Shown here: piece after piece, positions 30,115 through 47,720 of the stretch
How positions within the stretch are numbered: the first letter of the stretch is position 1
Layout of the letters: every line of letters starts with the position of its first letter
Source: an uncultured Acidimicrobiia bacterium
GTDB lineage: Bacteria > Actinomycetota > Acidimicrobiia > IMCC26256 > JAENVU01
Direction: 5' to 3'
NCBI GenBank assembly: GCA_963805415.1
Contig: CAWDUD010000004.1
Location: 9,803-73,802 of the forward strand
Length of the DNA stretch: 64,000 nt
Notes under the pieces: generated by a model
Database searches by the model: none
Seen by the model: only the letters and a program-made list of their open reading frames with translations
What the model was told of the DNA's origin: nothing
Translations under genes and position numbers: made by a program

Positions 30115-31782
30115 ATGAAAATAGCGATGATGACTGAGGGCACCTATCCGTTCAGTTTCGGCGGGGTAAGCGTGTGGTGCGATCAGCTCATCCGCGGAAT
30201 GACTGGATATGAGTTCCAGCTAGTCGCCATCGCGGCGACGGAAGCCGAGCAAGTGGTGTGGTCACTGCCGGACAACGTCACCGCCGTGCACAAGGTGCTG
30301 CTCTGGGGTCGTTCGCCCGCCGGACCAGCGGGTCGGCGGCACGCCCTTCCAACCCGCATGCTGCGCGGGTTTATCGATGTAGTGCTCGACCCCTCGGCCC
30401 AGGCCCGTTTCGCCGATACGCTGCGCGAGTTGTTCGAGTTCTCACTTCACGGGAATCTTAGCGCTGGACTGGCCAGCGAGAAGGCCGTGCAGTTCCTAAG
30501 CGAGGCGTGGCGGGACCGGTGGTCAGGGGCAGGACAGTCCGTACCTACCCTGCATGATGCCGTCACCGCACTGCAACTGCTAGAGCACTGCCTTCGCCCG
30601 TTGTCATATTCGCCCATCCAGGCTGATATCGGGCATGCGGTGACAAATGGGCTCGGGGTGCTGCCTGCGCTGGCGGCGAAATGGCAATATGGCACGCCCT
30701 TGCTGCTTACTGAGCATGGCATCTATTTGCGCGAGCAGTACCTGGGGAATCGCAAGAGCCCTTACCGATGGCCGGTGAAGGCGTTCTACCTCGGATTTAT
30801 GCGCCACCTGTGTGCGCTCGGCTATAGCGAGGCTGCTATGATCACACCGGGGAATGTCTACAACCGGCGCTGGGAAGAGCGGCTCGGCGCGGAGCCGACG
30901 CACATTCGTACCGTATACAACGGGGTGGAGCCGGACAACTTCCCTGCTCTTGAGGGCGAGCCCGAGGTTCCGACGATCTCATGGGTCGGACGTGTTGACC
31001 CGATCAAGGATCTTGAGACGTTGCTGCGAGCGTTCAGCCTGGTGCACCGGGAAATGCCCGAGGCAAGGCTCCGCATGTTCGGGGCGCCCCCCAAGGGCAG
31101 GGAGTCCTACCTGCAGCGCTGCCGGGCGCTAGCCACGGAGCTCGGCATCAGCGATGTGGCGACGTTCGAGGGCCGGGTCGAGAACATCCGCGACGCTTAC
31201 GAGGCCGGCAGCGTCGTCGCGCTCTCCAGCGTTTCCGAGGGCTTCCCGTACAGCGTGATCGAGGCAATGACCTGCGGCCGTACGTGCGTGGCGACGGACG
31301 TAGGAGGGGTCACCGAAGCCGTCGGAGATACCGGCCTGGTGGTTCCTCCGCGCAGCCCCGCCCCCATGGCGCAAGCCTTCCTTACCCTGCTGCGGGACGA
31401 TGAACTGCGGCACCGGCTCGGCGCCGCTGCCCGCACCCGGGCGTTGGAGCGCTTCACGGTTGACGGGGCTATCAGCAGCTTCGATGAGATCTATAGCTTT
31501 ATCAGCGCCGGCCGCCGGGTGCCGGTCGCGGCGCCTGAGCCGGATGCCCATGACCGGCCTGAAGCCGATGACGAATCAGACCTGCCGCCGTGGGAGGCCC
31601 CAGATGACCGTGAGCACCACGTCGACGCAGCACGATCCGCCGTCTGGCCAGCTGGCACACGGAGTCCGGCGGCAAACGGCGGCAAACATCGCCGAGGATT
31701 CCAAGCCGCGCGGTCTGGAGCAGCTTTGCGAGCAGTTCGTGGAGGTGTGCGAATCCGCAGTCGATCCGCTGGAAATAACTAG
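30115..31782 (+). CDS. PelF-like GT4 glycosyltransferase (DUF3492-type N-domain + glycosyltransferase family 1 domain)
   Basis: 'MKIAMMTEGTYPFSFGGVSVWCDQLIRGM' matches the PelF N-terminal signature ('EGTWPYVRGGVSSW..Q'). 'LLLTEHGIYLRE', and C-terminal GT-B motifs 'ISWVGRVDPIKD' and 'ALSSVSEGFPYSVIEAMTCGRTCVATDVGG'. The last roughly 60 codons overlap the next gene and may not be real. Confidence 0.85.
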   Translation: MKIAMMTEGTYPFSFGGVSVWCDQLIRGMTGYEFQLVAIAATEAEQVVWSLPDNVTAVHKVLLWGRSPAGPAGRRHALPTRMLRGFIDVVLDPSAQARFADTLRELFEFSLHGNLSAGLASEKAVQFLSEAWRDRWSGAGQSVPTLHDAVTALQLLEHCLRPLSYSPIQADIGHAVTNGLGVLPALAAKWQYGTPLLLTEHGIYLREQYLGNRKSPYRWPVKAFYLGFMRHLCALGYSEAAMITPGNVYNRRWEERLGAEPTHIRTVYNGVEPDNFPALEGEPEVPTISWVGRVDPIKDLETLLRAFSLVHREMPEARLRMFGAPPKGRESYLQRCRALATELGISDVATFEGRVENIRDAYEAGSVVALSSVSEGFPYSVIEAMTCGRTCVATDVGGVTEAVGDTGLVVPPRSPAPMAQAFLTLLRDDELRHRLGAAARTRALERFTVDGAISSFDEIYSFISAGRRVPVAAPEPDAHDRPEADDESDLPPWEAPDDREHHVDAARSAVWPAGTRSPAANGGKHRRGFQAARSGAALRAVRGGVRIRSRSAGNN

Positions 31783-33156
31783 TGCACTGGAGTTCGACGG
31801 TCTAAGTGACCGGCTAGCGCGGAAGCGGTACGGCGCTTCTGATGTGTTTGCCCTGGCTGAGGAGATGTTCCGGCGTGTGCCGCGGCGGCCGGCCGAGCCT
31901 GGCCACAGCCCGACCCATGGCAGACAAGCAAGGTACGGGCCGCCCTGCACGGCCTGCTGTACGGGTTGCCGACTGTCTGCTTCGCGGCTTCGAACGGGCT
32001 GCTGGCCGGGCACGAGGTGCTCATTGTCCTCATCGTGGCCCTGCTCGCGTCGTGGGCGCTGGGCCAGGGCCTTGCCTATCTCGGGTACGCCCGGCTAAGC
32101 CGGGCTGATCGAGCTCAGGCGGCCCACCTGCTGCTCGTTGGCGAGGCCGCCGGGTTCGCGGGCATTGTCTGCGCCTTGGCCGTCACGTCCCTGGCGGTAC
32201 ACGCGCACGGTATGACGCTCATTTTCGGCCTGGGTCTCGGGGCATACATGCTCGGCGCCACGGTGCTGATGGTCTTGGGCGGCGAGCGACTGCTGCTGGT
32301 CGCGCTCGCGCCCGGGGTGCTGGGCTCCGCGACGTTCCTGATCCTCGGCCGGCCATCGCAGCTCCAGTACGCGGCCTGGGGGGGCCGTGGCCGCCACACC
32401 TGTGCTGGCTTTGACCATAGCCGCGGTCCGCTCCGGCTACGTCGCTGGCCTTTTCGGCAAGGCCAGGGAAGCGCGCAAGGGGCAGTCAGCTGGCAAGCTG
32501 CTGGTGGCCGCGAGTTGCGTGATGCGCTGCCGAGCGCTGGATTCGGACTGGTAGCCGCCGCGCTTTTGGTATTCCCGATCGCGGTCGCGTTGCTCGGGTC
32601 CCACGCTCCCACCGCCGGGGCAATGCTGGCCTCGCTGCCCCTGGCACTCAGCATGGGCGCCGCCGAGTGGCTGCTCATCTGGTTCCGACGGCGAACACGC
32701 CGGCTGCTGGGTAGCACACTGGACCTGCGGATCTTCAGATTCCGGGCCTGGATAGTGCTGTTTGCCGCCCTGCTGCAGTACCTGGCGGCCGCTATCCTGC
32801 TCACCGCTATTCTCGCCACGATCGCTAGCCTGGCTAACCTCGTTCATCTGCATGCGATAGCACTCACGCAGATCGCGGCGTACATGGCACTCGGCGGCGG
32901 GATGTTCCTGGCTTTGCTGCTACAGGCCTTCGGCAGCCGCACGTTCCCCCTGATCGCCTGTGCAGCAGCGCTGGCTGTCGAGGTCATGCTGCGTGGTCTA
33001 GGCGCATTGGGTCAGCTGCTGACGTGCGGGGCGTTGATGGTGGTGCTGGCTGTGTACGCGGCGGTGGTGCGGGGCGTGTGGTGCGGCATGGCTGAGATGG
33101 GTGCGAGCCCTCGCGGCCGGGCTGAGGAGCTAGGTAGGGGAGGGCATCGTGGGTGA
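31604..33156 (+). CDS. Polytopic membrane protein, unknown family (candidate exporter/co-synthase; about 3 frame breaks)
   Basis: ATG 31604 has a GGGAGG sequence 6 nt upstream. The cytoplasmic N-domain reads 'DPLEITSALEFDGLSDRLARKRYGASDVFALAEEMFRRVPRRPAEP', followed by at least 10 hydrophobic helices. Frames change near 31920, at the G7 run 32379-32385 and near 32505. Confidence 0.55.
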
Positions 33157-33771
33157 GCAGTCGTCATGGAATCCGTGGGACCAGCAGATTCCGAATCAGT
33201 GGCAGAGAACGTCTCTGTACCAGGGTCAGCCGTATCAAGGGCAGCCCGATCCGGGACAGTCCCTACACGGGCCTTCCGTCGGCGAGCCACCCCATCGTGA
33301 TCCCGGTTACCGTCCCCCGCCACAGCCGCACAGAACGCCACCTCGCGGGAACGGCCACTGGGTGCGGAACATCCTCTCCGGCGTCGGTGCCCTGGTCGTC
33401 GCCATCGTGCTGATCTATATCTTCTCGAGCCGCGGCGGCAGCGGCGCCTCATCCGACTCGCATGCGTCAGCCGCGTCCGCGCACCACTGGATCACGTACA
33501 CAGTCACCGGTACCGCGGCGCAGACGTGACCTACGGCCCGGCTGGGACCGAGATGAGCGCCATGGTTCCGATGAAGGTGACGGTTCCGCTCCAGAGTGCC
33601 TTGTTTTACACGATCACCGCCCAGCTCAACGGCCACGGCAAGGCGGCATGCGCGATCTCCGTCGACGGGAAGGTCATCGACCGGGCCAAGGCGACGGGTG
33701 GCCACCACATCGCACAGTGCGGGATCCAGCGGAACCAAGGCACGGGGACCTGGGAGAGCGTCCGGGGGTAG
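33149..33771 (+). CDS. MmpS-like membrane-anchored protein (frame break near 33524)
   Basis: GTG 33149 overlaps the upstream stop. There is a Pro/Gln-rich N-terminus, TM 'ILSGVGALVVAIVLIYIF', then 'ITYTVTGTAAQ|VTYGPAGTEMSAMVPMKVTVPL...ACAISVDGKVIDRAKATGGHHIAQC', typical of the MmpS-type beta-sandwich. Confidence 0.55.
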
Positions 33772-33789
33772 GCAGTAATCCCAGCAGGT

Positions 33790-34983
33790 CGGCCCCCGGG
33801 TGACTGATCAGGGTGCGGATCGCCTGGTAGCAGCACAGCATCGCGTAGATCTCCTGCCGGATCAACGGCGGGGATTTCGCTCGCAGGACGACGGCAGTAC
33901 CGCCACGGAGAGAGGTCTCCAGCTCATCGAAACAGGTTTTCAGCTGCCAGTGCCGGGCGTAGGCGCCCACAGCTTGATCCGCTGACAACACCGACGGATC
34001 GGTGATGTCGGTGACCAGGGGGAAGGCTTCAGGGAGCACGCTGCCGTTCCGGCTGGCGGCCGAGTACTCGATGACCCGGACCGGAATGCCGGGGATGGCA
34101 GGAGGATAGCCACCCTCGCGCCGCATCCGGCGGAGAACGCCGCCGGGGTTGGCAACGCGGAACAGGGTACCGACGGTCAGGAAGCAGCTCCAGCACCTGG
34201 TAGGTCCACATCATCCTCGCCCGTCATAGTACATGCGCCTTGGCTGCCAGCACATCCTCCAGCAAGCCGTGCGACAAGAAGTCGCGGCTGGCGAGCAGCA
34301 GGTCGTCGTGGGCATAGTAGTTGTTCAGCAGCTTGCTGGTCAGCGGCAGCTCTCCGGCATCCAGCGGCGCCAGCTCGGCCCCGGAGCACCGCCCAGGTCC
34401 CTGCACCGGCCCAAGCCGACGACGCGGACCGCGGAAAGGGTCCCGGCCCGGCGTGGTCGCCCGGATAGCCGAACTCGAGTCCCGTTCTCCCTGGTGGCCT
34501 GGACCTCCAGGCATATCCCGTTGACCGCGATCAGACGCATCCGGCTCCACCCGGGCGATGTCTGGCTGCTCTGCGGCCGACGGCCTGGCTGCTGCTGCTA
34601 GCTAGCCGCTGGATCGCCGGCCTGGAAAGCCGTTGCCGGGCCAGAGAATCGCGGCCGGGGAGGGCTGCGTGCCGAGCGCGGGCCTGCCGCGGCAACGATC
34701 GCGCCCGCCGCAACACCGAGTACCTTGCACCAGCTTGTCCCAGACCTGAGTGTAGCCGGACCCCGGGACAGATCACCACTACCAGAAGAAAGGACACTCG
34801 ACGACACGCGCGGGAAGGGTACCGCTTGCGCTGTCCCGGACCTCGGCCTCGTCAACGACCTTGTCGACCAGTTCCGGCGGGAAGACCTTTGCCGAAGTTG
34901 CGATCCCGATCCGGTCCGGCAGGTGGTTCCCCGAATCTCCCCGCTGTCTCTTCGGCGACGCAATCGCTATCTGTTCTGGTCAT
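33790..34983 (-). mobile_element. IS4-family transposase remnant (multiple frame breaks, 3' truncated)
   Basis: N-terminal IS4-type segment 'LPDRIGIATSAKVFPPELVDKVVDEAEVRD...LPARVV'. DDE region 'DDLLLASRDFLSHGLL' and 'VRVIEYSA...YARHWQLKTCFDELETSLRG...LRAKSPPLIRQEIYAMLCCYQAIRTLI'. The pieces lie in all three minus frames. No terminal inverted repeats were identified. Confidence 0.7.
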
Positions 34984-35561
34984 TCACCGCTGGAGGAGGG
35001 TTCACCGGCGCCGGGAGGTTCACTGCGGCGGTCACCTCGGTGATGATGGTGGTGCCTGTGGCCACCAGGCGGCGCGCCTTACCGAAGTCGCCGTGCGCAA
35101 TGTCCGTCCCGGCCTTTTCGAGGTCTTTCAGCGCGGATCTGTAGGCCTAAGCTTGTACCGGAGGCATAGGCCCGGCCAGCGCGGCCTTCGCGTCAGCGGC
35201 GAGCCGGGCGCCTGCAGACCTGGCTGAGCTGGCGCTGCGAGCCCGTTCCGCGGCGCCGAGCTTGCTCAGGTCGGCGTCGACGGCCGCGAGTAGCTAACTC
35301 GCGCGGCCGGCCACCCATTTCTGCTCCTTGTGACGGCAGCCTCCCTGATGACCGTGGGAGTGGCGGACGGGCCGATGACGGCGAATTCGCGCCGCCGCCG
35401 GCATTGACGATGACCCCGGCGATGATGCCGGGAACTATGACCGGCACCAGCACAGCAAGAGCCTTCTGCCAGCGTGACCATGACACCCATACGCGTGACC
35501 GTGACGCGGCCGGCGATCGCCGCGATCCCGGGCTCTTGGCCCGCTTCCCTGGCTTTGTCAT
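34967..35561 (-). pseudogene. Degraded ORF for a membrane-anchored hypothetical protein
   Basis: 'MTKPGKRAKSPG...ALAVLVPVIVPGIIAGVIV' (basic N-terminus + TM), then frame changes and one in-frame stop before 'YRSALKDLEKAGTDIAHGDFGKARRLVATGTTIITEV'. Confidence 0.25.
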
Positions 35562-35646
35562 GGCCCTCTCTTTTCCTATTTCCTCGGCATCGTTTTTCAG
35601 GGCTAGCCCTCCATCGGAGGGCTAGCCCCCTGGACCGTGGCTCAGC

Positions 35647-38600
35647 TCACCGTCAGGGTGAAGGTCTGCTTGGCTGAGCCGGCAGAGTTGGTGGCGGTGA
35701 TGGTAGGGGTGAGAGGTCCCGGCGGTGGTCGGGGTTCCCGACAGGGTTGCCGTCCCGTTGCCGGCATTGGTCCAGGCTCAACCCCGGCACGCTGCCGGTA
35801 CGGCTGAGGCTCGGTACCGGGTAGCCGCCGGTGGTGACCGTGAACGTGAAGGACTGCCCGTGGGTCGCCGTCGCCGACGGGGCGCTAGTGATCCCCGCCG
35901 CCTGGTTCACGGTCAGCGTGAATGCCTGCGTGGCGGTGCCCAGGGCATTCGACGCCGTGATCGTCAGGCGGTACACGCCGCCCTGGTTGACTCCGGGCGT
36001 GCCGGGCCAGGGTAGCCGTGCCGTTGCCGTTGTCGACCCAGGTCAGGCCCTGCGGGAGGGCACCGGCCTCGGCCAGCGTCGGCGCCGGCCCACCGGTCGC
36101 CTTGACGATGAAGGTGAACGCGGAGCCCGCCGTGGCCGTGGCCGATGCTGCCGAAGTGATCGCTGGCGGCCCTGTGACGGTCAGCACGAACGCCTGGGTT
36201 ACCGTGCCTGCTGAATTGTTCGCCGTGAAGGTCAGCGGTAGGTGCCGCCGTTTGCCGCCGTCGGGGTGCCTGTAATGGTTGCGGTCCCGTTGCCGCGGTT
36301 GGAGAAGCTGACACCGGCCGGAAAAGTCCCGCTAGGGGTCAGTGGTGGTGTATGGTGGCCGGCCTGCCAGTGGTGGTCACGGCGAAGGTGAACGCCGCCC
36401 CGACGTGGCCGTCGCGGTGGCCGGGCTGGTGAAGGCCGGCACGGTGCCTGCTGCCGGCGCCTTGACCGTAAGTGTCAAGGACTGAGAGACCGACCCCCGG
36501 CGTTGTTCGCGGTGAACGGCACGGTGTAGGGCCCGCCGCGACCGCTGGGGTGCCGGACAGCGTTGCCGTTCCATGCCGTTGCGGAGAAGCTCAGCCCGGC
36601 CGGCAGGTTCCCGGCGCTGAGCGCCGCCGCCGGGTACCCGGTGGGGTCGACCGAAAGGTGAAGGCCGTACCGGCGGTCTCGGTCACCGCGGCCGCGCTCG
36701 TGAAAGCCGGCGGTTGGTGACCGTCAGGGTGAACGCCTGGCTCGTCGTCCCCGTCAGTTCCTGGCGGTGATGGTCAGCGGGTACCGCCCTTGCCGCCGCC
36801 GTCGGGGTGCCGGACAGCGTCGCCGTGCCGTCGGCGTTGGCGAGGAACGTGATGCCCGGCGGCAGCGTCCCGGCCCTGGTCAAGGTGGGGGCCGGCGTTC
36901 CGGCCGTAGTGACCGTGAAGCTGAACGCCGTGCCCGAGGTCGCCGTCGCCGTGTTCGCGCTGGTGATGGCCGGCCCGCTGTTGACCGTCGAGGTGAAGGC
37001 CTGGGTAGCCGTTCCGGCGGATTGTTGGCGGCGATGGTCACCGGGTAGGTACCTGGCTGCCCGCGGCGGCGTGCCGGACAGCGTGGCGGTGCCGTCGCCG
37101 TTGTCCGTGAAGGTCACCCCCGACGGCAGCGCCGGCTGCTCGTGGCCGTCAGCGCCGCCGTCGGGTAACCGGTGGTCGTCACCGTGAACGACCCGGCCGT
37201 CCCGGCCGTGAACGTCGTCTTGTTGGCGCTGGTGATCGCCGGCGCCGCGTTGCGGGTTGACGGTCAGCGTGAAGCTCTGGGTCGCGTCGGGCCGACGCCG
37301 TTCGCGGCGGTGATCGTGAACGGGTAGGTGCCGCCGGTCCGGCGGCCGGGGTGCCGGCCAGCGTGGCCGTGCCGTCGCCGTTGTCGGTGAAGGTGACGCC
37401 GGACGGCAGCGACCCGGTCTCGGTCAGCGCCGCGTGTCGGGCTGCCGGTCGTCGTCACCGTGAACGAGCCCGCCGTGCCGACGGTGAATGCCGTTGATCG
37501 GCGCTGGTGATCGCCGGGGCGGTCTGGGCGCGTTCACCGTCAGCGTGAAGCTCTGGGTCGCGTTGGAGCAGCACCCCGTTGCGGCGGTGATCGTGAGCGG
37601 GTAGCTGCCGCCGGTGCCGGCGGCCGGGGTGCCGGCGAGCGTGGCCGTGCCGTCGCCGTTGTCGATGAAGGTGACGCCGGACGGCAGCGTCCCGGTCTCG
37701 GTCATCGCCGCGGTCGGGATGCCGGTCGTCGTCACCGTGAACGACTCCGCCGTGCCCACGGTGAACGTCGCCGTGTTCGGCGCTGGTGATCGTCGGGGCC
37801 TGCTGAACGGTGACCGTGAACGTCTGCGTGGATCGGGCCGACGCCGTTGGTGGCGGTGATCGGGATACGGGTACGTGCCGGCGCGTCGGGGTGCCGGCCA
37901 GCGTGGCCGTGCCGTCGCCGTTGTCGGTGAACGTCACGCCCGGAGGCAGGCCGGACTCACCCCAGGTCGTCGCCGGGAAGCCGCCGTGGTGACGGTGAAC
38001 TGACGGCGACCCGACGCCCCCGTGGCGGTGTCGGCGCTGGTGATAGCCGGCGACTGGCCGACGATGACCGTGAAGGCCTGGGTGGCGTCGGGGCTGACCC
38101 CGTTGCTGGCGGTGATGGTCACGGGTGGCGTGCCGGTGGCCGTGCGGGGTGCCCGAGAGATGGCGGTGCCGTCGGCCGTTGTCGGTGAACGTCAGCCCGG
38201 CGGGCAGCGTTCCGGTCTCGGTGATCGTCGGCGTCGGCGAACCGGTCGTAGTGATCGCCACGCCCCCGCCTGGTTCAGCGTGAAGTCGGCGGTCGGACGA
38301 CTGGTGATGGTCGGCGCGGTGGCCGCGCTCACGGTGATGGTCAGGTTCAGCGTCGCCAGGCTGCCCGAGGATTGGTGGCCGTGATCGTGACCGGGTAGCT
38401 CCCCGCCGAGCCGCCGGCAGGGGTGCCGGCGATGGTCGCGGTGCCGTCGCCGTTGTCCTTGAACGTCAGCCCGGAGGGCAGGGTCCCGGATTCGGTGATC
38501 GAGGCTCGGGTAACCGGTGGTGGTGACTGTATAGGTGCCCGCCACGCCGGTGCTGAAGGGTGCCGTGCTCGGCACTGGTGATGGTCGGCGCCTCGGCGCT

Positions 38601-38860
38601 GGTCAGCGTGAAGCTCTGGGTCGCGTCGGGCCGGCCCCGTTCGGTGGCGTGATCGTCAGCGGGTAACTGCCGCCGGTGCCCGACGCTGCGGTGCCCGCGA
38701 TGGTCGCGGTGCCGTCGCCGTTGTCGGTGAAGGTGATGCCGGAGGGCAGCGCCCCGGTCTCGGTGAGCATCGGCGCCGGGCACCGGTGGTGGTCACCGTG
38801 AAGCTGAAGGGTGCCCACGATCGAGGTGGCCGAGGATGCGCTGGTGATTGCCGGGCCCAC
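35647..38860 (-). repeat. About 12 tandem coding repeats of about 270 nt (putative Ig-like / He_PIG-type domains)
   Basis: The 'ITSA' motif recurs about every 270-280 nt (near 38850, 38590, 38310, 38040, 37790, 37510, 37240, 36965, 36430, 36170, 35890). The copies are divergent, not identical. Confidence 0.8.
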
Positions 38861-41460
38861 GTTTTCGGTGAGGGTTTGGGTGGCGCCGGTGCCGAGGCTG
38901 ACCCAGTCGGACAGGGTGCCGCCGTAGGGCTGGCCGAAGGCCGTGCCGTTGACGGTGGTCCGGCCGGGGCGGTGACCGGCACGTTGACCGGCGCGCCGTT
39001 GTTGGTGATGGTGACGGTGCCGTTGGTCTCGGTTGCGGTGTACTGGCCGGCGATCTGGGCGGTGGCCCAGGCGGCTTGGCGTGCCAGCGCCTGCGCGGAG
39101 GTGACGTCGGTCAGCTGGTCCAGCGGGGCGCTGCTGGCGTACCAGGCGTTGTACTGGGACAGCATGGTGTTGATCAGGGACAAGATGGTGTACCGTAGTC
39201 CTGGCCGCTCCAGACGGTCGGTGGCCGGGCCGATCAGGTTGGACTGGTGCGCGTAGCCCACCCGCGGGTCGTTGGCCAGCACGTGGCCCAGCATGATGTG
39301 CGACTCGGACGCCAGCACGTCCGCCTCGGCCGCCGGGGCCGCGCGGCAGGTGGTGACCGTCGTGCCGCGCAGTGGCCGACATCGCCGGTGCCGCCGGGGA
39401 ACGAGACGCCCTGCTGCACGTATAGCGTGTTGTACTCGTTGAGCTGGTCCGGCCAGTTGGCGGCGTTGTAGTAGATGTTGCTGGGGTACCGCGGCGCGTC
39501 AGCGCCGTGCCCAGGGTGTACACTGCGGCTGCCGGGACGCGTCCGCGGCGAAGGTGGTGACGCCCGTCCCGGTCAGGGAGGCGCTGGCATGTTCGGGTTC
39601 TCCAGCCCGGAGTGCTCCCCGGTGACCAGCGCCGCCGGGGTGTAACTGGTCAGCCCGTTGGCGGCGGCGAAGGCCTGGTTCAGGCCGATCTCCTGTTCGA
39701 GGGAGTCAGCCGCGGTGCTGGTGGCCGGCAGCCGGCCGCCGCTGCGCAGTCGATGCCCGGGTTGGTGGCCGTGGTGAAGGTCGAGCTGGAGTCCGGCGGG
39801 CCCCCGGGGCGGTCCGGTGTCGGTGAAGCCGTACGTGGTGGACGAGGTGGCGGAGGTGTTTTCGGGCACCTGGTCGACCAGGCCGTAGCTGCCGCCGTCC
39901 TGGCGGTAGATGTTGTACCCCCAGAACCCGGTCCCGCCGGTGTGCGAGGCTCCTCCTGGGCCAGCGTCGGCCCGCCGCCGTTGGTCGCCTCGGGCCAGCT
40001 CAGCGCGACCGCCCGCCGGCCCACGGTGACCGGCTCGCGGCACCGAGGGCTCGGACTCGCCGTACGCGGTCGCCGCGGTGATCTCATAGCTGTAGGTCCC
40101 GGCCGCCAGGCTCCCGCCCACGCCGCCCGTCACCCACGACAGCGCCTGCTGATCGGCCTTGGTGCAGCCCAGGAACAGCGTGCGACCAGGTGTGGTTGAT
40201 CCAGTTGAACTCGGACTGGGCGCCCAGCAGCGCGCTGACCAGCCCCGCGTCATCAGGGGCGGACGAGTCCGCCACAAAGCCCGGGTCGGTGTAGCCGTTG
40301 TAAGTGCCGGAGCAGTTCGCGCTTGACGCGGTTGGCGCGGTGCACGCCCCCACCCCGTTGAAGGCCAGGTTCAGCTTGATCCCGGTCTGCTGCTCCCAGG
40401 CCGTCACGTACGCCACGTCCGCCGCGCTCATCTGCGCATCCGGCGGAGCGCCGTTCGTCCCGGGGCCACCCCCTGGCCGCGGGCAGGTGAAATCAGGCGG
40501 GTCCGTCGCCGCCGGGGTGCACTGGTACGTCGAGCTCCACTGGTTATCAGCCAGGAACGTGTCATCGATGTCCTGGCCGAAATAGTTCCGGTACAAGCCC
40601 AGGTGCGTCCCCTGCGTCACCCAGTTGATCAGCCCCGGCGCCAGCAGCAGCCACTGCGTATCGCTGGCGTTGTAGTCGAAGGTCAGCGCCAGCTCCGCCA
40701 CCCCCGCCTGCGGGTCACCACCCGGATGCTGGTACACCCCCGCCAGGACGTGTCCGGCCGTGTCGGTCAGGAACGGCGTGTACGGCGCCCCGGCATCCAC
40801 CGTGGCCCCGTAGCCTAGCTGCCGGTATCAAACGGGACCGGGCCCTTCAGCTCCGGGAACGCCGCCAGCCCGGCCGCGGTCAGCGTCCCCGTCGACCCGT
40901 CCAGCACCCCCGAGGTCGCGACGGCCGTCACGCCCAGCGCCGGCGAGGGGTAAAGTACCCGTCAACCTGCCGCACCCCGAAGCTGGACTCATACGCATCC
41001 AGCGCATCCAGCTGCCCCGCCGCGAAAAAGCCGGCGAATCGGCGATCACCACCGCGTTGAAATTACCGGTAGTGCCGCTGGACAGCGCGGGCAGCGTCAC
41101 CGTCTCACTGCCAACCGCCCCCGACGCCGTGACCAGCGTATACGGCACCCCCTCGCTGTCCAGCGCGGCCTGCCACGCCAACGTGGTCACATCAGATGAC
41201 CCCCCGCCGACCAGCAGCACCTTCAAGTCCAGCGTCGGCGCCGCCGGCGCCGACCCCGCCGCCCCGCGCCGCCAGCCGCCGCCCCCGCCCCCGAAACCAC
41301 GCCGCCGACGCCGACCGCGCCCCCCCACCAGCCGACACCCCAGCCGCCGCCAGCACCCCGGCCAGGCACAACCCCACCCACCCCACACCACCACGCCCGC
41401 ACACACCAGGAAACCCCACCGAACACCCCACCCCTCCAGAAGACCTACGTGGTGTAACAC
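35647..41460 (-). pseudogene. Giant secreted Agd3/CE18-like polysaccharide deacetylase with FN3-like insert and about 12 Ig-like repeats (15 or more frame breaks; pseudogene or poor consensus)
   Basis: Minus-strand pieces in order. N-domain: 'TLDLKVLLVGGGSSDVTTLAWQAALDSEGVPYTLV'. Catalytic region: 'GLYRNYFGQDIDDTFLADNQW' (Asp-Asp near 40561-40566) and, about 125 residues later, 'FNWINHTWSH' (HxxxH near 40180-40194). FN3-like: 'LAAGTYSYEITAATAYGESEPS'. Further: 'HIMLGHVLANDPRVGYAHQSNL'. Repeats follow of the type 'PAITSA..AT...G.AFSFTVTTTG.P.PTLTETGTLP.GLTFTDNGDGTATLSGTP...G.Y.LTITA.N'. The true stop is TGA at 35647-35649 ('TFTLTVS*'). Confidence 0.55.
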
Positions 41461-42293
41461 GACCCTACCGGACCGGAACGCGCAACGCTTAGTAATACAG
41501 CAGTTTCGGAAGGCCTAAATAGAACATGCTGGTCACGGGACCAGCAAGCAGAGTGCGGCTATGCCACTAGAAGATATGGACCAGCGTCTTCCGAGTCTGC
41601 CATCTCTATGATGCCTGACGGCATGCGCCGGATTACATCAGACGCAGAAATTCTCGCCATGGCCAAAAAGCGGCGTTTCTGTTATGGCTACGTGACCTTC
41701 ACTACGGCGCCGCATAGGGTAGCACGGGGCCTTCCGGCCGGACAGGGGGTTTCGACGAGATCCCTTCTTACTGGGCTCCGGCTACCCTCACATAACGTTT
41801 GTCCGTTTTGTTCGCCTGGTTATCCCGTTACACGCCAGATGATCGAATCGCCCGTTTAGAAGACTTAATTCTGTCGATCGGAGAACCACAAGCGGCTAGT
41901 ACATCCGGTCCGGCGTAAACCGACTTATCTGCTGGCGCGTCATTTACTGTGCTGAAGCACCGCGAAATAGGTCTGACTGCGATCCCAAAGTTGGACAACA
42001 GAGGCCGGGCCACTGCGATCCGGCGACAATCAAGGGGGGCCGATGCGCCATACCGCATGCCATAGCAACCGGGTTCGTACAGTACCGGCTGTCGCGCTGA
42101 GGCCCCTTGACCACGAAGTGCCCGCGGTGGCAACCGCCGACGGGATGACCGAAATAACCAGCCTGATGTTCGCGTGCACGACCTTCATTTCCCAGGCCCG
42201 CACAGGCCTGCGCGCACGCTTAGCGTGCGGGGAGTTGGTGGTGGTGCTGCGGGCGGGCTGGCGTGAGTGTTCTGTTCGGGAGGGGTAGTGAGC

Positions 42294-43291
42294 ATGGCGG
42301 AGCGGGTTGCGGTTACGGGCGCCGACGGGTTCATCGGCTCGCACCTCGTGGAGCGCCTCGTCGAGCGCGGCCACCGCGTCCGCGCGATGGCCCTGTACAA
42401 CTCCTTCGGATCCTGGGGCTGGCTCGACACCCTGCCCGCCGAGGTGATGGCGAACGTCGAGGTCGTGCTCGGTGACGTGCGCGACGCCGGCTGCGTGGAC
42501 CCGTTCGTCGAGGGCGCCGAGGTGGTCTACCACCTCGCCGCGCTGATCGCGATCCCTTACTCGTACACGGCGCCGCGCTCGTACGTCGAGACGAACGTCG
42601 TCGGGACGCTCAACGTGCTCGAGGCGGTGCGGCGGCACGGGACCGGCCGGATGGTCCACACCTCGACGAGCGAGACGTACGGGACGGCGCGGACGGTGCC
42701 GATCAGCGAGACGCACCCGTTGCAGGCGCAGTCGCCGTACGCCGCGAGCAAGCTCGCCGCGGACAAGCTCGCCGAGAGCTTCCACCTGAGCTTCGAGGTG
42801 CCGGTCGCGACGCTGCGTCCCTTCAACACCTTCGGGCCGCGGCAGTCCAACCGGGCGGTGATCCCGACCGTCGTCGGCGCAGATGGCCGCCGGGGGCGAA
42901 GGTCGTCGAGCTCGGGGCGCTCACCCCGACCCGGGACTTCCTGTTCGTCAAGGACACCGCCGACGCGTTCGTCGCGATGGGCACCGCCCCCGCGGACGCC
43001 GTCGTCGGCCGGGTCCTCAACGCGGGCACCGGTGAGGAGATCTCGATCGGCGGCCTCGTCGAGACGATCGCGGAGATCATGGGCCTGGCCGTCGAGGTCC
43101 GGCAGGACCCGAAGCGGATGCGCCCGGACGGCTCGGAGGTGCAGCGGCTGCTGGCCGACGCCTCCGCACTGCGTGCCGCCACCGGCTGGGCGCCACGGCA
43201 CGACCTGCGCAAGGGCCTCGCGGAGACCGCCGACTGGTTCCGCGACCCGGCCAACCTCGCTCGTTACCGCACATCCGCGTACGTCGTCTGA
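42294..43291 (+). CDS. NAD-dependent sugar-nucleotide epimerase/dehydratase (extended SDR; two frame breaks near 42872 and 42895)
   Basis: ATG 42294 after GGGAGGGG. 'VTGADGFIGSHLVERLVERGHRV', 'ALYNSFGSWGWLD', catalytic 'SPYAASK', 'LRPFNTFGPRQ', then in another frame 'LTPTRDFLFVKDTADAF'. Confidence 0.8.
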
Positions 43292-43310
43292 GCGCGAAGG
43301 AGTCACGACC

Positions 43311-44035
43311 GTGCATGCAGTGGTGCTCGCAGGCGGCAAAGGCGTCCGCCTCCGCCCGTACACGACCGGCCTCCCCAAGCCCCTGGTGCCCATCGGTGAG
43401 GAGCACTCCATCCTGGAGATCGTCCTCATGCAGCTCGCGGACCGCGGGTTCACCGACGTCACGCTCGCGATCGGCCACCTGGGCCAGCTCATCCGCGCGT
43501 TCGTCGGCGACGGCCGCCGATGGGGCATCCGGGTCGACTACCTCGAGGAGTCAGGCCCGCTCGGCACGATGGGCCCGGTCGTCCAGCTCGCGGACCGACT
43601 GCCCGAGCACTTCCTGGTGATGAACGGCGACATCCTCACCGACCTCGCCTACGACGAGCCCTGCTGCACCAGCACGTGGCGGCGACCTCGGCGCTGACGG
43701 TCGCGACGTACGAGCGGGAGGTCTTGGTCGACTTCGGTGTGCTCGACGTCGTCGAGGACGCACGTGGTCGGGTTCCGCGAGAAGCCGCGCTCCACCAGTG
43801 CGGGTCAGCATGGGCGTCTACGGCGTGATCACCGGCCGCGCTGGAGCGGTACCGGCCGGTACCGCCCTTCGGCTTCGACGACCTCGTGCTCGACCTGCTC
43901 GGCCGGGGCGAGCCGCCGACCAGCTACCCGTTCGCGGGCTTCTGGCTCGACATCGGCCGCCCCGAGGACTACGACCGCGCCAACGCCGAGTTCGGCCGAT
44001 CCTGCTGCCGCAGCGTTCCAAGGAGGCCGGTGTGA
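43311..44035 (+). CDS. Sugar-1-phosphate nucleotidyltransferase (about 3 frame breaks)
   Basis: GTG 43311 after GAAGGAG. 'VVLAGGKGVRLRPYTTGLPKPLVPIG', 'LVMNGDILTDL'. The C-terminal part 'YPFAGFWLDIGRPEDYDRANAEF' is in another frame. The stop overlaps the next start (GTGA). Confidence 0.75.
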
Positions 44036-44960
44036 ACCATCGTGTGGTGTTGTTCGGCGCGTCCGGGTTCATCGGCGGGCACGTGCGTGCCGCGCTGGGG
44101 GAGGCCGATCCCGGCGTTGAGACGGTGGCTCTGCCCCCGGGCCAGGCGCCAGCACGATCTGATCGATGGTGGACCACGACGGGCTGGTCCGCGTGCTGGG
44201 CTCGACCATGCGCCGACCGCGATGGTCGCGGGGGCCTTCGTCGGCCGCCTCGGCGGCACCGGCTCCGACCTCCTGGCGCGGCAACACCCTGGTCGCGACC
44301 AAGCTGCTGGAGAAGACCGGCGCCGTGGCAGCGGCCCCGGCGTGCGCCTGGTCCGGCTGGGCTCCGCCGGAGAGTACGGCGTAGTGCCGCAAGCGGCCAC
44401 AGTGTCACCGAGTACGCCACCGACGCTGCCCGTGGCCGCGTACGGCGTCAGCCACCTGGCCGGCACCCGGCTGTTCCAGCTCGCGGGGGAGAGCGGGCTG
44501 GCCGACGCGGTGTCGCTGCGGGTGTTCAACCCGATCGGGCCCGGCCTGTCGGCTGAGGAACATGCTGGGCCGCGCCACCGACCGGATCCGTGCGGCGCTG
44601 GCTTTCCGGGGCTGGAGCGAGATCACCATGGGGCCGCTGTCGGCGTACCGGGATTTCGTCGACGTCCGGGATCTGGCGGCCGCAGTCCCGGGCTGTGCTG
44701 CGGCCGCCGGGGCTGTTGCGCCACCGGGTGTTCAACATCGGCAGCGGCCGGGCGGTGCCGGTCCGGGCGATGGCCAAGGAGCTCTGCGCCATCAGCGGCT
44801 GCGCCGTCTCGGTGAATGAGGATTCGCAAGACCTGGCGCGCCCGGTAGACATACCGTGGCAGCAGGCGGGCAATTGACCCGCGCCGTCGAAGACCTAGGC
44901 TGGAAGCCCCGCCGTGATCTTGCGACCTCGCTCATCGACCTGTGGGAGGCAAGCGCGTGA
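44032..44960 (+). CDS. Second NAD-dependent epimerase/dehydratase-family protein (5 or more frame breaks)
   Basis: GTG 44032 after AGGAGG. 'VVLFGASGFIGGHVRAAL', 'VRLGSAGEYG', 'AAYGVSHLAGTRL', 'RVFNPIGPG', 'YRDFVDVRDLAAAV', 'VFNIGSGRAVPVRAMA', 'DLGWKPRRDLATSLIDLW', spread over three frames. Confidence 0.6.
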
Positions 44961-45718
44961 ATCCGCACGCAGCTGATGGCACCGACCTGATCATACCGCT
45001 GCTCATCGTGCCGGCCTATTTCCATCCGGCCGTCGACCCGGACGATTGGGCGTGGCTGGTTCGCCATGCGAAGCAGATCCGGATGATCGTGCTCAACCCG
45101 GCCAGCGGGCCGGGTCCGGAGCCCGACGAGGCCTACTTCCCGGTACTGGACCGGTTGCGTTCTGCCGGGGTGGTGGTGAGTGGCTACGTTGATACCAACT
45201 ATGGCCAGCACCCGGCATGCCGGCCAGCGACGGGGATCGGGAACTGCCTGGACTGGTATGACGTGGACGGGGTCTTCTTCGATCGTGTCGCGACGGGCGC
45301 CGATCAGCTTGGCCATTATGCGGACCTCGCCCGCCGTGCGCGGGACATGGGAGCGGACGTGGTGGCGTTCAATCACGGGGCGCACCCGATCGAGGCCTAT
45401 GCCGAGCACGCCGATCTACTCGGCACCTTCGAGGGTCCCTGGAACGCCTATCTCGAGATGGCCGTGCGACGCTGGGAGAGGTCGCGAGGAGCCGGGCAGT
45501 TCTTCCACCTCCTGCATTCGGTGCCGACCTCTTTCTTCAGCGACGCGATCTGGCTTGCGGCCCGGCGCAAGGCGGGCAGCGTTTACATCACGGATCGTAG
45601 CGGAGCCAACCCCTGGGACAGCAGCCGGCCGGCGAGTTCGACCCGCGGTCTCTGTGGTCGGCCATCCTCACTGGTCACGATGATCCCCGTCGGGTCTGAG
45701 CCCGCCCAGAGGATATGA
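44957..45718 (+). CDS. Spherulin-4 family protein (Sph3/GH135-like), no signal peptide
   Basis: GTG 44957 overlaps the upstream stop (GTGA). 'LLIVPAYFHPAVDPDDWAWL', 'IVLNPASGPG', 'GVVVSGYVDTNYG', 'WYDVDGVFFDRV'. The frame is intact. Confidence 0.7.
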   Translation: MNPHAADGTDLIIPLLIVPAYFHPAVDPDDWAWLVRHAKQIRMIVLNPASGPGPEPDEAYFPVLDRLRSAGVVVSGYVDTNYGQHPACRPATGIGNCLDWYDVDGVFFDRVATGADQLGHYADLARRARDMGADVVAFNHGAHPIEAYAEHADLLGTFEGPWNAYLEMAVRRWERSRGAGQFFHLLHSVPTSFFSDAIWLAARRKAGSVYITDRSGANPWDSSRPASSTRGLCGRPSSLVTMIPVGSEPAQRI

Positions 45719-46690
45719 CGGATAGTCTGCGACGCGATGCCGACTTGGCCGCGCCGGGCAAAGGCGGCAGAAAGTTTCACCGTCGGCCCCCGGCCCGCAG
45801 GCCGCGGGTCGTCTTGCTGACGACCGCCGTCGTGCTGATCGCGGCGGCTGGCGTGGCGGTCCGAACGGTCCTGGAAAATGCCCCGCCGTGCCAGAAGACG
45901 CTTGTACCTGCGTATTTCTATCCGGGAGCGGATTGGACCACGGCTATCGACAGCAACCCTGCGCCTGGCCTCATGATCCTTGATATCACCGAGTCCGGCG
46001 CTGGCAGTTCGCCGGACCGGACCTACCAGGCCACGGTCAAGCGGGCGCGGGCCGCGGGAATCACGATCATGGGCTACGCCAGCACCGGTTATGCGCGACG
46101 TTCCCTGGCGGCGGTCGAGGCAGATATCAGGCACTACAGGACCTGGTACGGGGTGACCGACATCTTTCTCGATCAGGCCTCTAGTAGCAGCGGCGACATG
46201 ACGTACTACCGGCGCCTGTCCGGCTACGCACACGGCCTGAATCCCGGGTCGGCCGTGATGCTCTCTCAATCCCGGTACGTTTCCTGACCAGCAATATATG
46301 TCGCTGGGCGACATTATAATGGTATTCGAGAATACTTATGCCAGCTACGTTAATCTCCAGATTCCTGGATGGATCCACAAATATCCTGCCGCCAGGTTCG
46401 CTCATGTAATTTACGCGACCTCGGGAGCGCAGTTCGTCAATGCCATCAGCTTGAGCCGTAAGCGGCAAGCCGGTTATGTCTATGTGACCGACGGTACTGG
46501 GTTGCAGCGCTACAATCGGCTGCCTTCCTATTGGTCACGCGAAGACGCGATATTTGCGAAATGCGCCGACGCTGACATATTCGGTAGTCCGGCGGAGCGG
46601 GCTCAGATAGCGCTATCGGCAGGGACTGCGCTGGCCGGCCAGGGCCGTCGTGAACAATGTCCCATCTATGCCATGGGAAACATCGAATGA
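45715..46690 (+). CDS. Spherulin-4 family protein (Sph3/GH135-like), membrane-anchored (frame break near 46262)
   Basis: ATG 45715 overlaps the upstream stop (ATGA). Signal anchor 'VVLLTTAVVLIAAAGVAV'. 'LVPAYFYPGADWTTA', 'ITIMGYASTGYARR', 'WYGVTDIFLDQA'. The second half 'NPGTFPDQQYMSLGDIIMVFENTYASY...GYVYVTDG' is in the ORF 46298-46690 frame. Confidence 0.7.
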
Positions 46691-47720
46691 GCAGAACTTG
46701 GTGAGCGCCGTGGCGGTGTCACTGCCCCAGTCATCGGTATACTCGGCGTCCAGCACCAGTTTCCCGGCTTTCACGTATGGTGCCGTCACGCCTCCGCAGG
46801 TGTGGAAGAAGTTGCATTCCTCGTCCAGCAGGAAGTCCGTGGTCGGCTCCAGCGCCGCAGAGAACTTAGCGTCGTTATCGCCGTTCTTCTGCCCCCAAGC
46901 GAGCCCGAGACTGTGCGCGTAAGCACCGAGCAGCTTGTTGTACTTTATGTTATCGCTCTCGGTGATCCTAAAACCGGTCGCATTGGTATAAGAGTCGTCA
47001 ATATCCGGCTCGACTGCATCGAAGCCCTTGGCGGAGCACTGCTGCCTTATCATCGACTTGATGATGCGGATCGTCGAGGCTGCGTTAATGTTGAGATAGC
47101 GCTCGGAGTATCCGGGCATCGCGGCGCCTAGATCTCCGGCGGCTTTCAATTGCGCGAAGTAGGTTACCGGAATGCCCTCCTGCGAGGCCGAGAAATAGTC
47201 GCCGACCGCGCCGATCTCGATGTAGCAGATCACCTTGTCGTGCAGGCTGTGCAGCGCCCTGACCGCCGAGGCAGGGTTATCAATGCCATCGATATCGTAG
47301 ACGGTCGGGTTCTGCGCTTGCCGACTGGCGGCATTCATCGCCTTCTCGCCCATGTCCGCCGCGCCGTGTACGTTCAGCGCATGATCCAGTTCCCACTGAA
47401 ACTCGGGCCCATTATTTGGGCCGGTAGCCCTGGGGTGCCACCACATGCAGGGCCTTGGATGCCGCCACGACAGGTGCATGAGCTACCGACTTGCCACTGG
47501 TCACAGCAGCGGCCGACGCGCTGGTCACAGCAGTCGCCGACGCGGAAGATCCCGACACGGGAGCTGCTGGCACGGTCCCGGGACTCGGACGTGTATGAGT
47601 GATACTCGCAGCCGGCGATTCGTGACTGGAACCGCCGCAGGCGGCGACCAGCACCAAGGTAAGTCCGGCGACTATAGCCGCTGCCTGTTTCGTAACTTTT
47701 GAGTCCGACTTCCCGCCCAT
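46613..47720 (-). CDS. GH114-like endo-alpha-1,4-polygalactosaminidase lipoprotein (frame break near 47450)
   Basis: Lipobox 'LVLVAACGG' (ORF 47412-47720). Then 'FQWELDH...VYDIDGIDN...KVICYIEIGA...GFDAVEPDIDDSY.NATGF...AHSLGLAWGQKNG...DFLLDEECNFFHTC...KLVLDAEY' (ORF 46613-47479). Confidence 0.75.

What the first reader, a model, noticed from the sequence alone, without database searches (positions are those of the whole stretch)
35647..41460. Roughly 5.8-kb deacetylase gene with an unusual architecture: Agd3-like catalytic core + FN3-like insert + about 12 Ig-like repeats
Reassembling the minus-strand fragments gives one protein of about 1900 residues. It has a Gly/Ala-rich signal-like N-terminus, an Agd3-like N-domain ('LKVLLVGGGSSDVTTLAWQAALDSEGVPYTLV') and a metal-dependent deacetylase core (Asp-Asp at about 40561-40566; His-x3-His at about 40180-40194). 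After the HxxxH motif there is an FN3-like module ('GTYSYEITAATAYGESEPS'), then a conserved C-terminal core segment. About 12 tandem repeats of about 90 residues follow ('PAITSA..ATA..G.AFSFTVTTTG.P.PTLTETGTLP.GLTFTDNGDGTATLSGTP'), ending 'TFTLTVS*'. Fungal Agd3 has no such repeat stalk. A long Ig-like stalk could hold the deacetylase away from the cell surface within a thick envelope or matrix, or bind the polymer. The gene has at least 15 frame changes, so it is either decaying or the repeats were poorly resolved in assembly.
Basis: partly seen in the sequence, partly recalled or inferred. Interest (0 to 1): 0.6.

Follow-up and report, generated by a model that had tools for sequence, protein, structure and literature searches.

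The report
Frame-broken Agd3-like exopolysaccharide deacetylase gene
This is the deacetylase gene of a bacterial galactosaminogalactan/Pel-like sticky-sugar cluster, with a common but unstudied architecture, and its many frame breaks look like long-read assembly errors, not gene decay.

Summary
The minus strand from about 41460 to 35642 encodes one protein of about 1,940 residues. It has a signal peptide, a CBM87 domain, an Agd3-type (CE18) deacetylase core with intact DD and HxxxH motifs, a beta-rich insert, a C-terminal domain and 12 He_PIG Ig-like repeats.

The architecture is not unusual. At least 359 homologues exist in Actinomycetota, many of them intact with the same 12 repeats. Bacterial Agd3 homologues in GT + membrane protein + GH114 + spherulin-4 operons were described in 2020. 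The window carries all those partner genes, on a 21.7-kb island inserted in ctaD.

The gene has at least 54 one-base indels, not 15. It has no in-frame stop in about 1,875 codons, no large deletion, GC3 of 0.92 and normal conservation. The indels are not tied to homopolymers. The same pattern (14-41 indels, almost no stops) recurs in this gene in five Nanopore-only MAGs, and in none of the 23 short-read or isolate loci.

I read the breaks as consensus errors (about 0.7) rather than a real pseudogene (about 0.2). This is an ordinary new member of a known kind, and a warning about annotating long-read MAGs.

The parts
35642..41460 (-). Whole Agd3-like deacetylase gene (about 1,940 codons; the exact start is uncertain because the first ~100 nt are frame-broken; stop TGA at 35644-35642). 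It carries at least 54 one-base indels.
41230..41460 (-). Signal-peptide region. The hydrophobic segment VGWVGLCLAGVLAAAGV lies in a different frame from the mature part. Intact homologues have a classic n/h/AxA signal peptide.
40640..41226 (-). CBM87-type N-terminal domain (LKVLLVGGGSSD...). The boundaries are approximate.
   Evidence: Pfam PF25116 E 7e-9 and 3e-8, above the gathering score. All 33 aligned homologues hit it.
40180..40640 (-). CE18 core, first part. Motif CM1 is GQDIDD (40578-40561) and CM2 is HTWSH (40194-40180), 129 residues apart. Includes the 638-nt stretch without any indel.
   Evidence: motif definitions from PMC7229062
39780..40170 (-). Beta-rich insert of about 130 residues between CM2 and the rest of the core ('FN3-like': GTYSYEITAATAYGESEPS, LSWPEA, FWGYNIYR). 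It is conserved in all homologues.
   Evidence: Invariant residues in alignment A1. Beta strands 384-499 in the model. Pfam fn3 not significant.
39200..39763 (-). CE18 core, second part: NPGIDC, GEHSG, the PRYPSNIYY motif (39497-39468) with the candidate CM3 arginine, and the SESHIMLGH and YAHQ histidines (39309-39238), which are candidates for CM4.
   Evidence: Pfam Agd3_CE hits this part in 18 of 33 homologues.
38860..39200 (-). C-terminal helical and beta-rich domain before the repeats.
   Evidence: Model secondary structure 714-821. One homologue hits Pfam Agd3_C weakly.
35645..38857 (-). Array of 12 He_PIG Ig-like repeats (about 88-92 residues each; DNA spacing 254-280 nt; 60-87% DNA identity). 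It holds 38 of the 54 indels. The protein ends directly after the last repeat.
34967..35561 (-). Small single-pass membrane protein gene that follows the deacetylase gene in the 12-repeat subfamily. Here it is frame-broken and has an in-frame TAG at 35147-35149.
33677..34983 (-). IS4-family transposase remnant at the 3' side of the block.
   Evidence: NCBIfam NF033592 E 3.5e-9, C-terminal part only. No other copy in the genome.
30115..33156 (+). Synthase module: a DUF3492 + GT4 glycosyltransferase (30115-31782, intact) and a multi-pass membrane protein (31694-33039, one frame break near 31900).
42294..47479 (.). Rest of the cluster: SDR/epimerase (42294-43282, + strand, one break), NTP-transferase (43311-43996, + strand, one or more breaks), second SDR (about 44000-44954, + strand, three or more breaks), two spherulin-4/GH135-like genes (44942-45718 intact; 45811-46564, one break) and GH114 (47479-46613, minus strand, intact).
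26213..47958 (.). 21.7-kb island carrying the cluster. It is bounded by the 19-bp direct repeat ATGATCAGCGCGGCGGTCA (26213-26231 and 47940-47958) and splits ctaD.
   Evidence: The empty site is contiguous in at least 14 same-genus genomes.

Best explanation
**What it is**
- The gene encodes a secreted bacterial homologue of the fungal galactosaminogalactan deacetylase Agd3.
- Its domain order is signal peptide, CBM87, CE18 metal-dependent deacetylase core with a beta-rich insert, C-terminal domain, then 12 He_PIG Ig-like repeats.
- It belongs to a galactosaminogalactan/Pel-like exopolysaccharide cluster. The cluster has a GT4 synthase with a multi-pass membrane partner, sugar-nucleotide enzymes, two GH135-like hydrolases and one GH114 hydrolase.
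- The cluster lies on a 21.7-kb island inserted in ctaD.

**How it probably works (inferred)**
- After the polymer is exported, the enzyme removes N-acetyl groups from its hexosamine residues.
- An Asp-His-His-bound metal and an Asp base would carry out the reaction. This would make the polymer cationic and adhesive.
- The Ig-like array keeps the enzyme in the matrix or envelope, or spaces it there.

**The frame breaks**
- The 54 or more breaks are most likely one-base consensus errors of a long-read metagenome assembly.
- They are concentrated in a strain-variable or poorly supported block (33.2-42.3 kb).
- On this reading the organism's real gene is probably intact.
For: **Family and fold**
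- CBM87_Agd3 scores above Pfam's gathering score in the window and hits all 33 aligned homologues. Agd3_CE hits 18 of 33.
- The D-x-DD and HTWSH motifs, R-x6-Y and downstream histidines are invariant in alignment A1 and present in the window.
- The AlphaFold model of the 68%-identical intact homologue L071 (pLDDT 76.6) has 6NWZ Agd3 as its top hit: E 1.4e-21, TM 0.67 normalised by target length.

**Cluster context**
- GT4+DUF3492, a multi-pass membrane protein, SDR, NTP-transferase, a second SDR, two Spherulin4 genes and GH114 are all present.
- The same gene set surrounds the intact homologue P0002 and many other loci. It matches the operons described in PMC7229062.

**Indels look like errors**
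- 54 one-base indels, 0 in-frame stops, no large deletion, full colinearity and the same 12 repeats as intact homologues.
- GC3 is 0.92. Identity to the family consensus is 0.78, within the homologue range of 0.70-0.87.
- The chance of zero stops is 6e-3 to 2e-6 if substitutions accompanied indels at 5:1 to 10:1.
- The indels are not associated with homopolymers: 13% of events and 13% of random positions lie near runs of 4 or more.
- The same gene in five other Nanopore-only MFD MAGs shows 14-41 one-base indels with 0, 0, 0, 0 and 2 stops. Two intact controls show none.
- Broken copies (HSPs in more than one frame) occur in 17 of 33 MFD loci, against 1 of 23 short-read or isolate loci.
- MFD MAGs are Flye assemblies polished with one round of Medaka, Nanopore-only (PMC12313526).
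- This genome is 3.6 Mb in 14 contigs but only 57.8% 'complete'.
Against: - The indel density (9.3 per kb) is about 6-20 times that of the neighbouring island genes (about 0.3-1.5 per kb). rpoB and rpoC have none. Simple uniform low coverage therefore does not explain it.
- The block also carries real structural damage: a truncated IS4 remnant, an in-frame TAG in the small downstream gene, and a gene order that splits the otherwise conserved membrane-protein/SDR adjacency.
- The corrected protein has 15 mismatches at 427 invariant columns, against a median of 3 (maximum 22) for intact homologues.
- No reads could be inspected, and I do not know for certain that this genome is a Nanopore assembly.
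- The substrate and the role of the repeats are inferred, not shown.
Confidence: 0.65

Rival explanations
1. The gene is a real, recently inactivated pseudogene. After an IS-mediated rearrangement split the cluster, selection on the deacetylase was lost and it accumulated many small indels.
For: - Indels are locally concentrated compared with neighbouring genes and core genes.
- An IS4 remnant lies next to it, and the adjacent small gene has an in-frame TAG.
- The block sits between the membrane-protein gene and the SDR gene, unlike all homologue loci.
- There is a modest excess of changes at invariant columns: 15 against a median of 3.
- The gene was not found in the 18 same-genus genomes searched; one gave only a weak partial match.
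Against: - There is no in-frame stop in about 1,875 codons and no deletion larger than a few codons. GC3 is 0.92 and divergence is normal.
- P(0 stops) is at most 6e-3 at ordinary substitution:indel ratios.
- The indels are not at homopolymers, where natural slippage concentrates.
- The same indel-only pattern occurs in five other Nanopore-only MAGs and in no short-read or isolate locus.
Confidence: 0.2
2. The 9-kb block (IS remnant, small gene, deacetylase gene, 830-bp spacer; 33.2-42.3 kb) is a mis-join or a minor-haplotype path in the assembly graph. Its sequence would come from very few reads, or from reads of a different strain. Both its position and its base-level quality would then be unreliable.
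For: - The block's gene order is unique among about 55 homologue loci.
- Its indel density is near raw-read level and drops on both sides.
- A second frame-noisy region of this genome (C1:216-232 kb) also lacks a counterpart in the two closest relatives.
Against: - No repeat marks the block's ends.
- The flanking cluster genes need exactly this deacetylase to be complete.
- No reads were available to test it.
Confidence: 0.1
3. The enzyme is a CE18 deacetylase but acts on a polymer other than a GalNAc-rich galactosaminogalactan/Pel-type glycan. The polymer could, for example, be built from a dedicated modified sugar.
For: - The cluster has two SDR enzymes flanking an NTP-transferase, rather than a single UDP-hexose 4-epimerase.
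- Sequence identity to Agd3 is only 15%.
- The bacterial core carries an extra insert of about 130 residues.
Against: GH114 and GH135-like hydrolases are encoded alongside it. In studied systems these cut alpha-1,4-(N-acetyl)galactosamine polymers (PMC7229062, PMC12054363).
Confidence: 0.15

Closest known systems
Agd3 of Aspergillus fumigatus (CE18 + CBM87; PDB 6NWZ)
   Same: - Domain order CBM87, deacetylase core, C-terminal beta domain.
- DD and HxxxH motifs more than 120 residues apart, and an Arg followed by Tyr at +7.
- Best structural match of the modelled homologue.
- Partner genes for an epimerase, a glycosyltransferase, GH114 and GH135.
   Different: - Only about 15% sequence identity.
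- An extra beta-rich insert of about 130 residues after HxxxH.
- A tail of 12 He_PIG repeats (about 1,070 residues) that Agd3 lacks.
- The synthase is split into a PelF-like GT4 and a separate membrane protein.
Bacterial Agd3 homologues in uncharacterised exopolysaccharide operons (Bamford et al. 2020, PMC7229062)
   Same: - Actinobacterial operons with a cytoplasmic GT, a multi-pass membrane protein, GH114 and sometimes spherulin-4 genes.
- All catalytic motifs conserved.
- No member has been characterised experimentally.
   Different: - That paper's text mentions no Ig-like or FN3-like additions.
- The He_PIG-tailed forms found here range from 2 repeats (Streptomyces) to 17 or more.
PelA deacetylase domain / PelA_DA of the Pel system (Pseudomonas aeruginosa, Bacillus cereus)
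   Same: - Deacetylates an alpha-1,4-GalNAc-rich biofilm polymer after export.
- Works beside a PelF-type GT4.
   Different: - Different domain organisation.
- No CBM87 and no Ig-like array.
- No PelD/E/G or PelB/C homologues were seen in this cluster.

Membership tests
CE18 (Agd3-type deacetylase) | CM1: adjacent Asp-Asp (catalytic base plus metal ligand) | tested here: met
   GQDIDD at 40578-40561. D233, D235 and D236 are invariant in 33 homologues.
CE18 (Agd3-type deacetylase) | CM2: HxxxH metal ligands, more than 120 residues after CM1 | tested here: met
   HTWSH at 40194-40180, invariant in the homologues. The spacing D236 to H365 is 129 residues, against 132 in Agd3.
CE18 (Agd3-type deacetylase) | CM3 arginine that positions the base (R613 in Agd3, with Y620 nearby) | tested here: inconclusive
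   An invariant P-R-Y-P-S-N-I-Y-Y motif has Arg and a Tyr at +7, the same spacing as Agd3 R613/Y620. No residue-level structural superposition was available.
CE18 (Agd3-type deacetylase) | CM4: catalytic-acid His with a conserved Met (M666/H668) | tested here: inconclusive
   An invariant IML-x-H motif and a YAHQ motif lie downstream. The Met-His spacing differs from Agd3 by one residue, and which His is equivalent was not resolved.
CE18 (Agd3-type deacetylase) | Overall fold like Agd3 | tested here: met
   Foldseek on the model of the intact homologue L071: 6NWZ_A ranks first, E 1.4e-21, probability 1.0, TM 0.67 by target length. Tested on the homologue, not on the window's broken gene. A sequence-profile search of the PDB found nothing.
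CE18 (Agd3-type deacetylase) | Metal-dependent de-N-acetylation of a GalNAc-containing polymer | not testable with these tools
   This needs a biochemical assay.
CBM87 | Match to the Agd3 N-terminal carbohydrate-binding module | tested here: met
   PF25116 scores 36.2 and 34.0 bits against a cut-off of 27.6. It hits 33 of 33 homologues.
He_PIG Ig-like repeat (PF05345) | Tandem domains of about 90 residues that match the profile | tested here: met
   E 1.2e-72 with 10 significant stretches in the read-through protein. Intact homologues show 12 stretches.
Fibronectin type III (PF00041) | Profile match of the insert after HxxxH | tested here: not met
   E 0.04-0.87, 10-14 bits against a cut-off of 25. 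The model shows beta strands there, so the insert is FN3-like in shape only at best.
Galactosaminogalactan-type gene cluster | Co-located epimerase, glycosyltransferase, deacetylase, GH114 and GH135/spherulin-4 genes | tested here: met
   All five functions lie within 30.1-47.5 kb. The same set lies around intact homologues.

The most novel reading that the evidence does not exclude
He_PIG-tailed CE18 deacetylases may be a large, unstudied class of actinobacterial matrix enzymes. The Ig-like array varies from 2 to 17 or more units. In the 12-unit forms it is paired with a conserved single-pass membrane protein. On this reading the array acts as a tether or ruler that sets where a cationic galactosaminogalactan/Pel-like polymer is deacetylated. 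If so, cationic GalNAc-type biofilm polymers would be widespread in soil Acidimicrobiia, Streptosporangiales and Streptomyces.
Probability: 0.3. Interest if true: 0.5.

Novelty: new member of a known kind. Interest (0 to 1): 0.3.

Why it matters
1. **A practical warning.** In Nanopore-only MAGs this long, GC-rich, repeat-bearing gene is often shredded by one-base indels. It would then be annotated as a string of fragments or as a pseudogene. The signature 'many indels, no stops, normal conservation' is a simple way to recognise such false pseudogenes.
2. **Scope of the family.** The bacterial Agd3-type deacetylase family is much larger than the 45 bacterial species reported in 2020. It commonly carries a long Ig-like tail. 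It also travels with a complete galactosaminogalactan/Pel-like cluster, here on an island inserted into a core gene.
3. **A route to experiment.** Cultured carriers (Streptomyces hundungensis, Kitasatospora mediocidica) make the biology testable.

Tried and rejected
- **PDB by sequence.** A sequence-profile search of the PDB with the 33-member alignment found nothing, even at E 10. Only the fold search linked the family to Agd3.
- **FN3 call.** Pfam fn3 on the insert was not significant.
- **Homopolymer errors or slippage.** Rejected. Indel sites are no nearer to base runs than random sites.
- **Mixed-haplotype signature.** I tested whether indels avoid conserved segments. There was no significant correlation between local conservation and indel density (Spearman rho +0.02 to -0.35, p > 0.26).
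- **Collapsed or mis-counted repeats.** Rejected. There are 12 units as in intact homologues, and the units are only 60-87% identical.
- **Using another copy of the IS as an internal reference.** There is no other copy in the genome. The transposase of locus L071 is unrelated.
- **Genome-wide uniform error.** Rejected as the sole cause. rpoB and rpoC are intact. The crude shift count per 5 kb has the same median in this genome (12) as in finished relatives' loci (11.5).
- **Polarising a second noisy block against relatives.** This failed. The region C1:216-232 kb has no syntenic counterpart in the two closest relatives.
- **A closer orthologue for exact indel placement.** None exists in the 5.8-billion-protein collection. 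The best hit is 69% identical.

Full report
**1. What is in the sequence**

The window is GC-rich (about 0.70). Between 33 and 42 kb it lacks long ORFs, although the rest of the window has them. Three-frame translation of the minus strand shows pieces of one protein hopping between frames.

I built a codon-score dynamic programme trained on this genome's own long ORFs. It stitches the pieces with 33 frame shifts in 5.8 kb, or 5.7 per kb. The same programme per kb in 19 intact homologue ORFs. In the genome's own rpoB-rpoC stretch it calls only two, both at the gene boundary. Family searches also find rpoB and rpoC in single open frames of 1,211 and 1,413 codons.

I then built a position-specific profile from 40 intact homologues of 1,914-1,941 residues and aligned the DNA to it while allowing one-base frame slips. 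The results were:
- The alignment is colinear from 41357 to 35645 over all 1,938 profile positions.
- It has 1,849 codon matches, 34 one-base deletions, 20 one-base insertions, 35 skipped positions and 6 extra codons.
- It contains no in-frame stop codon.
- The same procedure gives zero frame slips for two intact loci, L011 and L020.
- The signal-peptide region holds at least one further slip.

**2. What the protein is**

*Pfam hits.*
- CBM87_Agd3 scores above the gathering score on the N-terminal part.
- He_PIG scores E 1e-72 on the read-through protein.
- In an alignment of the catalytic parts of 33 intact homologues (A1), all 33 hit CBM87_Agd3 and 18 hit Agd3_CE.

*Catalytic motifs.* Bamford et al. 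(PMC7229062) define four Agd3 motifs.
- DD (CM1) and HxxxH (CM2) are invariant in the family. In the window they lie at 40566-40561 and 40194-40180, 129 residues apart. The spacing in Agd3 is 132.
- An invariant Arg with a Tyr at +7 mirrors Agd3 R613/Y620.
- Invariant histidines follow, but I could not decide which one is the catalytic acid.

*Structure.* An AlphaFold model of the catalytic part of the closest intact homologue with a long contig (L071 = P0002, 68% identical) reached pLDDT 76.6 and pTM 0.75. Its best PDB match is Agd3 (6NWZ): E 1.4e-21, TM 0.67 by target length. The deacetylase domain of human NDST1 comes next.

*The insert.* Between HxxxH and the rest of the core lies a conserved, beta-rich insert of about 130 residues. 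Its sequence motifs look FN3-like, but Pfam fn3 is not significant.

*The repeats.* Twelve He_PIG units follow, and the protein stops right after the last one. Intact homologues have a classic signal peptide and no C-terminal anchor.

**3. The architecture is common**

A scan of one genome per species found 56 loci. Many have open frames of 1,937-1,994 codons with 12 He_PIG stretches. Streptomyces has forms of about 1,053 residues with 2 stretches. Kitasatospora has about 1,217 residues with 4. Some Acidimicrobiaceae loci exceed 2,400 residues.

The large protein collection holds at least 359 homologues. The 120 listed are 54-69% identical over the catalytic 880 residues. They are named, if at all, 'putative Ig domain-containing protein'.

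**4. Context**

*The cluster.* The window carries, around the gene:
- a DUF3492-GT4 glycosyltransferase and a multi-pass membrane protein;
- an SDR/epimerase, an NTP-transferase and a second SDR;
- two spherulin-4/GH135-like genes and a GH114 gene.

The intact homologue P0002 sits in the same gene set, and many other loci share parts of it. This is the kind of operon that Bamford et al. reported for bacterial Agd3 homologues.

*The downstream gene.* In the 12-repeat subfamily, a gene for a single-pass membrane protein of about 200 residues directly follows the deacetylase gene. The window has it too, frame-broken and with an in-frame TAG.

*Gene order.* The window's order is unusual. The block [IS4 remnant, small gene, deacetylase gene, 830-bp spacer] lies between the membrane-protein gene and the first SDR gene. 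Those two genes are adjacent in every other locus examined.

- The whole cluster lies on a 21.7-kb segment bounded by a perfect 19-bp direct repeat that splits ctaD.
- The joined flanks are contiguous in at least 14 same-genus genomes.
- The deacetylase gene was not found in the 18 same-genus genomes searched, apart from one weak partial match (E 3e-4).

**5. Errors or decay?**

*Evidence for errors.*
- Despite 54 indels there is no in-frame stop and no large deletion. GC3 is 0.92. Identity to the family consensus is 0.78, against 0.70-0.87 for the homologues.
- In this ORF 1.9-2.4% of random substitutions create a stop. With 5-10 substitutions per indel, 5-13 stops would be expected, so P(0 stops) is 6e-3 to 2e-6.
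- The indels do not sit at base runs, so neither replication slippage nor classic homopolymer error explains them.
- The same gene shows the same signature in other MAGs of the Microflora Danica long-read catalogue, which is Flye plus one round of Medaka, Nanopore-only (PMC12313526):

| Locus | One-base indels | In-frame stops |
|---|---|---|
| L066 | 41 | 0 |
| L065 | 36 | 0 |
| L059 | 19 | 0 |
| L062 | 14 | 0 |
| L054 | 14 | 2 |

- Broken copies (hits in more than one frame) occur in 17 of 33 such loci, but in only 1 of 23 short-read MAG or isolate loci.
- In several of those MAGs the 5-kb upstream flank is at baseline. Six independent indel-only decays of one gene are implausible.
- This genome has 14 contigs and a genus-typical size but only 57.8% estimated completeness. 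That fits a noisy long-read assembly. Its core regions differ from the closest relative by 0.2-2 non-triplet indels per kb, though either genome could be at fault.

*Evidence for real decay.*
- The density in this gene (9.3 per kb) is far above that of the neighbouring island genes (about 0.3-1.5 per kb).
- The block also has a truncated IS, a nonsense codon in the small gene and a rearranged order.
- The corrected protein has 15 changes at 427 invariant columns, against a median of 3 and a maximum of 22.

*My reading.* I put about 0.7 on consensus error. The block may be a weakly supported or mixed-strain path in the assembly. I put about 0.2 on real pseudogenisation. The cause of the local concentration is unexplained.

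**6. Mechanism**

The following is inferred, not shown.
- The GT4 and its membrane partner polymerise and export a hexosamine-rich glycan from sugar nucleotides made by the SDR/NTP-transferase genes.
- The secreted CE18 enzyme binds the chain through CBM87 and the cleft, then removes some N-acetyl groups. It would use a metal held by Asp and two His, with the neighbouring Asp as base. This would make the polymer cationic and adhesive.
- GH114 and the GH135-like enzymes trim the polymer.
- The He_PIG array, whose length varies widely between lineages, most likely tethers or spaces the enzyme in the matrix or envelope. Which of these it does is open.

**7. Verdict**

However, the architecture is common, and this kind of operon is already published. 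The frame breaks are probably technical. This is a new member of a known kind, of modest interest, and a useful caution for long-read MAG annotation.

Noticed in passing
window 26213-26231 and 47940-47958: A perfect 19-bp direct repeat bounds a 21.7-kb island that splits ctaD. The joined flanks match at least 14 same-genus genomes contiguously at 85-93% identity. Two more distant COX1 paralogues exist elsewhere in the genome (C14 and C9).
   Followed up: partly
window 34967-35561 (-); L071:15785-16381 and 14 other loci: A conserved single-pass membrane protein of about 200 residues directly follows the deacetylase gene in the 12-repeat subfamily. In the window it is frame-broken and has an in-frame TAG at 35147-35149, in a locally AT-richer stretch.
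   Followed up: partly
window 33160-42290: The block [IS4 remnant, small gene, deacetylase gene, 830-bp low-GC spacer] interrupts the membrane-protein/SDR adjacency that is conserved in every other locus examined. No boundary repeats were found.
   Followed up: partly
L066, L065, L059, L062, L054 (Nanopore-only MFD MAGs): The orthologous gene carries 14-41 one-base indels with almost no stops, while the 5-kb upstream flanks look normal. In four of the five, insertions dominate, whereas deletions dominate in the window. Why this gene is hit so hard is unexplained.
   Followed up: partly
L071:23388-24874: The GT4+DUF3492 gene of the otherwise intact reference locus is split into products of 391 and 86 residues. 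The window's copy is one 555-codon frame. This is probably an indel in that MAG.
   Followed up: no
G000 C1:216000-232000 (L078): This is another of the most frame-noisy regions of the genome (35 shifts per 5 kb). It has no syntenic counterpart in the two closest relatives, so noisy blocks may coincide with accessory DNA.
   Followed up: partly
window 25729-29693 (+): An NB-ARC STAND NTPase and its WD40 propellers lie in two overlapping ORFs (25729-28026 and 27984-29693). This suggests one more frame break at the island border.
   Followed up: no
window about 26000 (-), C-terminal part of ctaD: The ctaD reading frame changes once just outside the island. Most relatives are one base shorter over the aligned stretch, which fits a background one-base error in core DNA.
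   Followed up: partly
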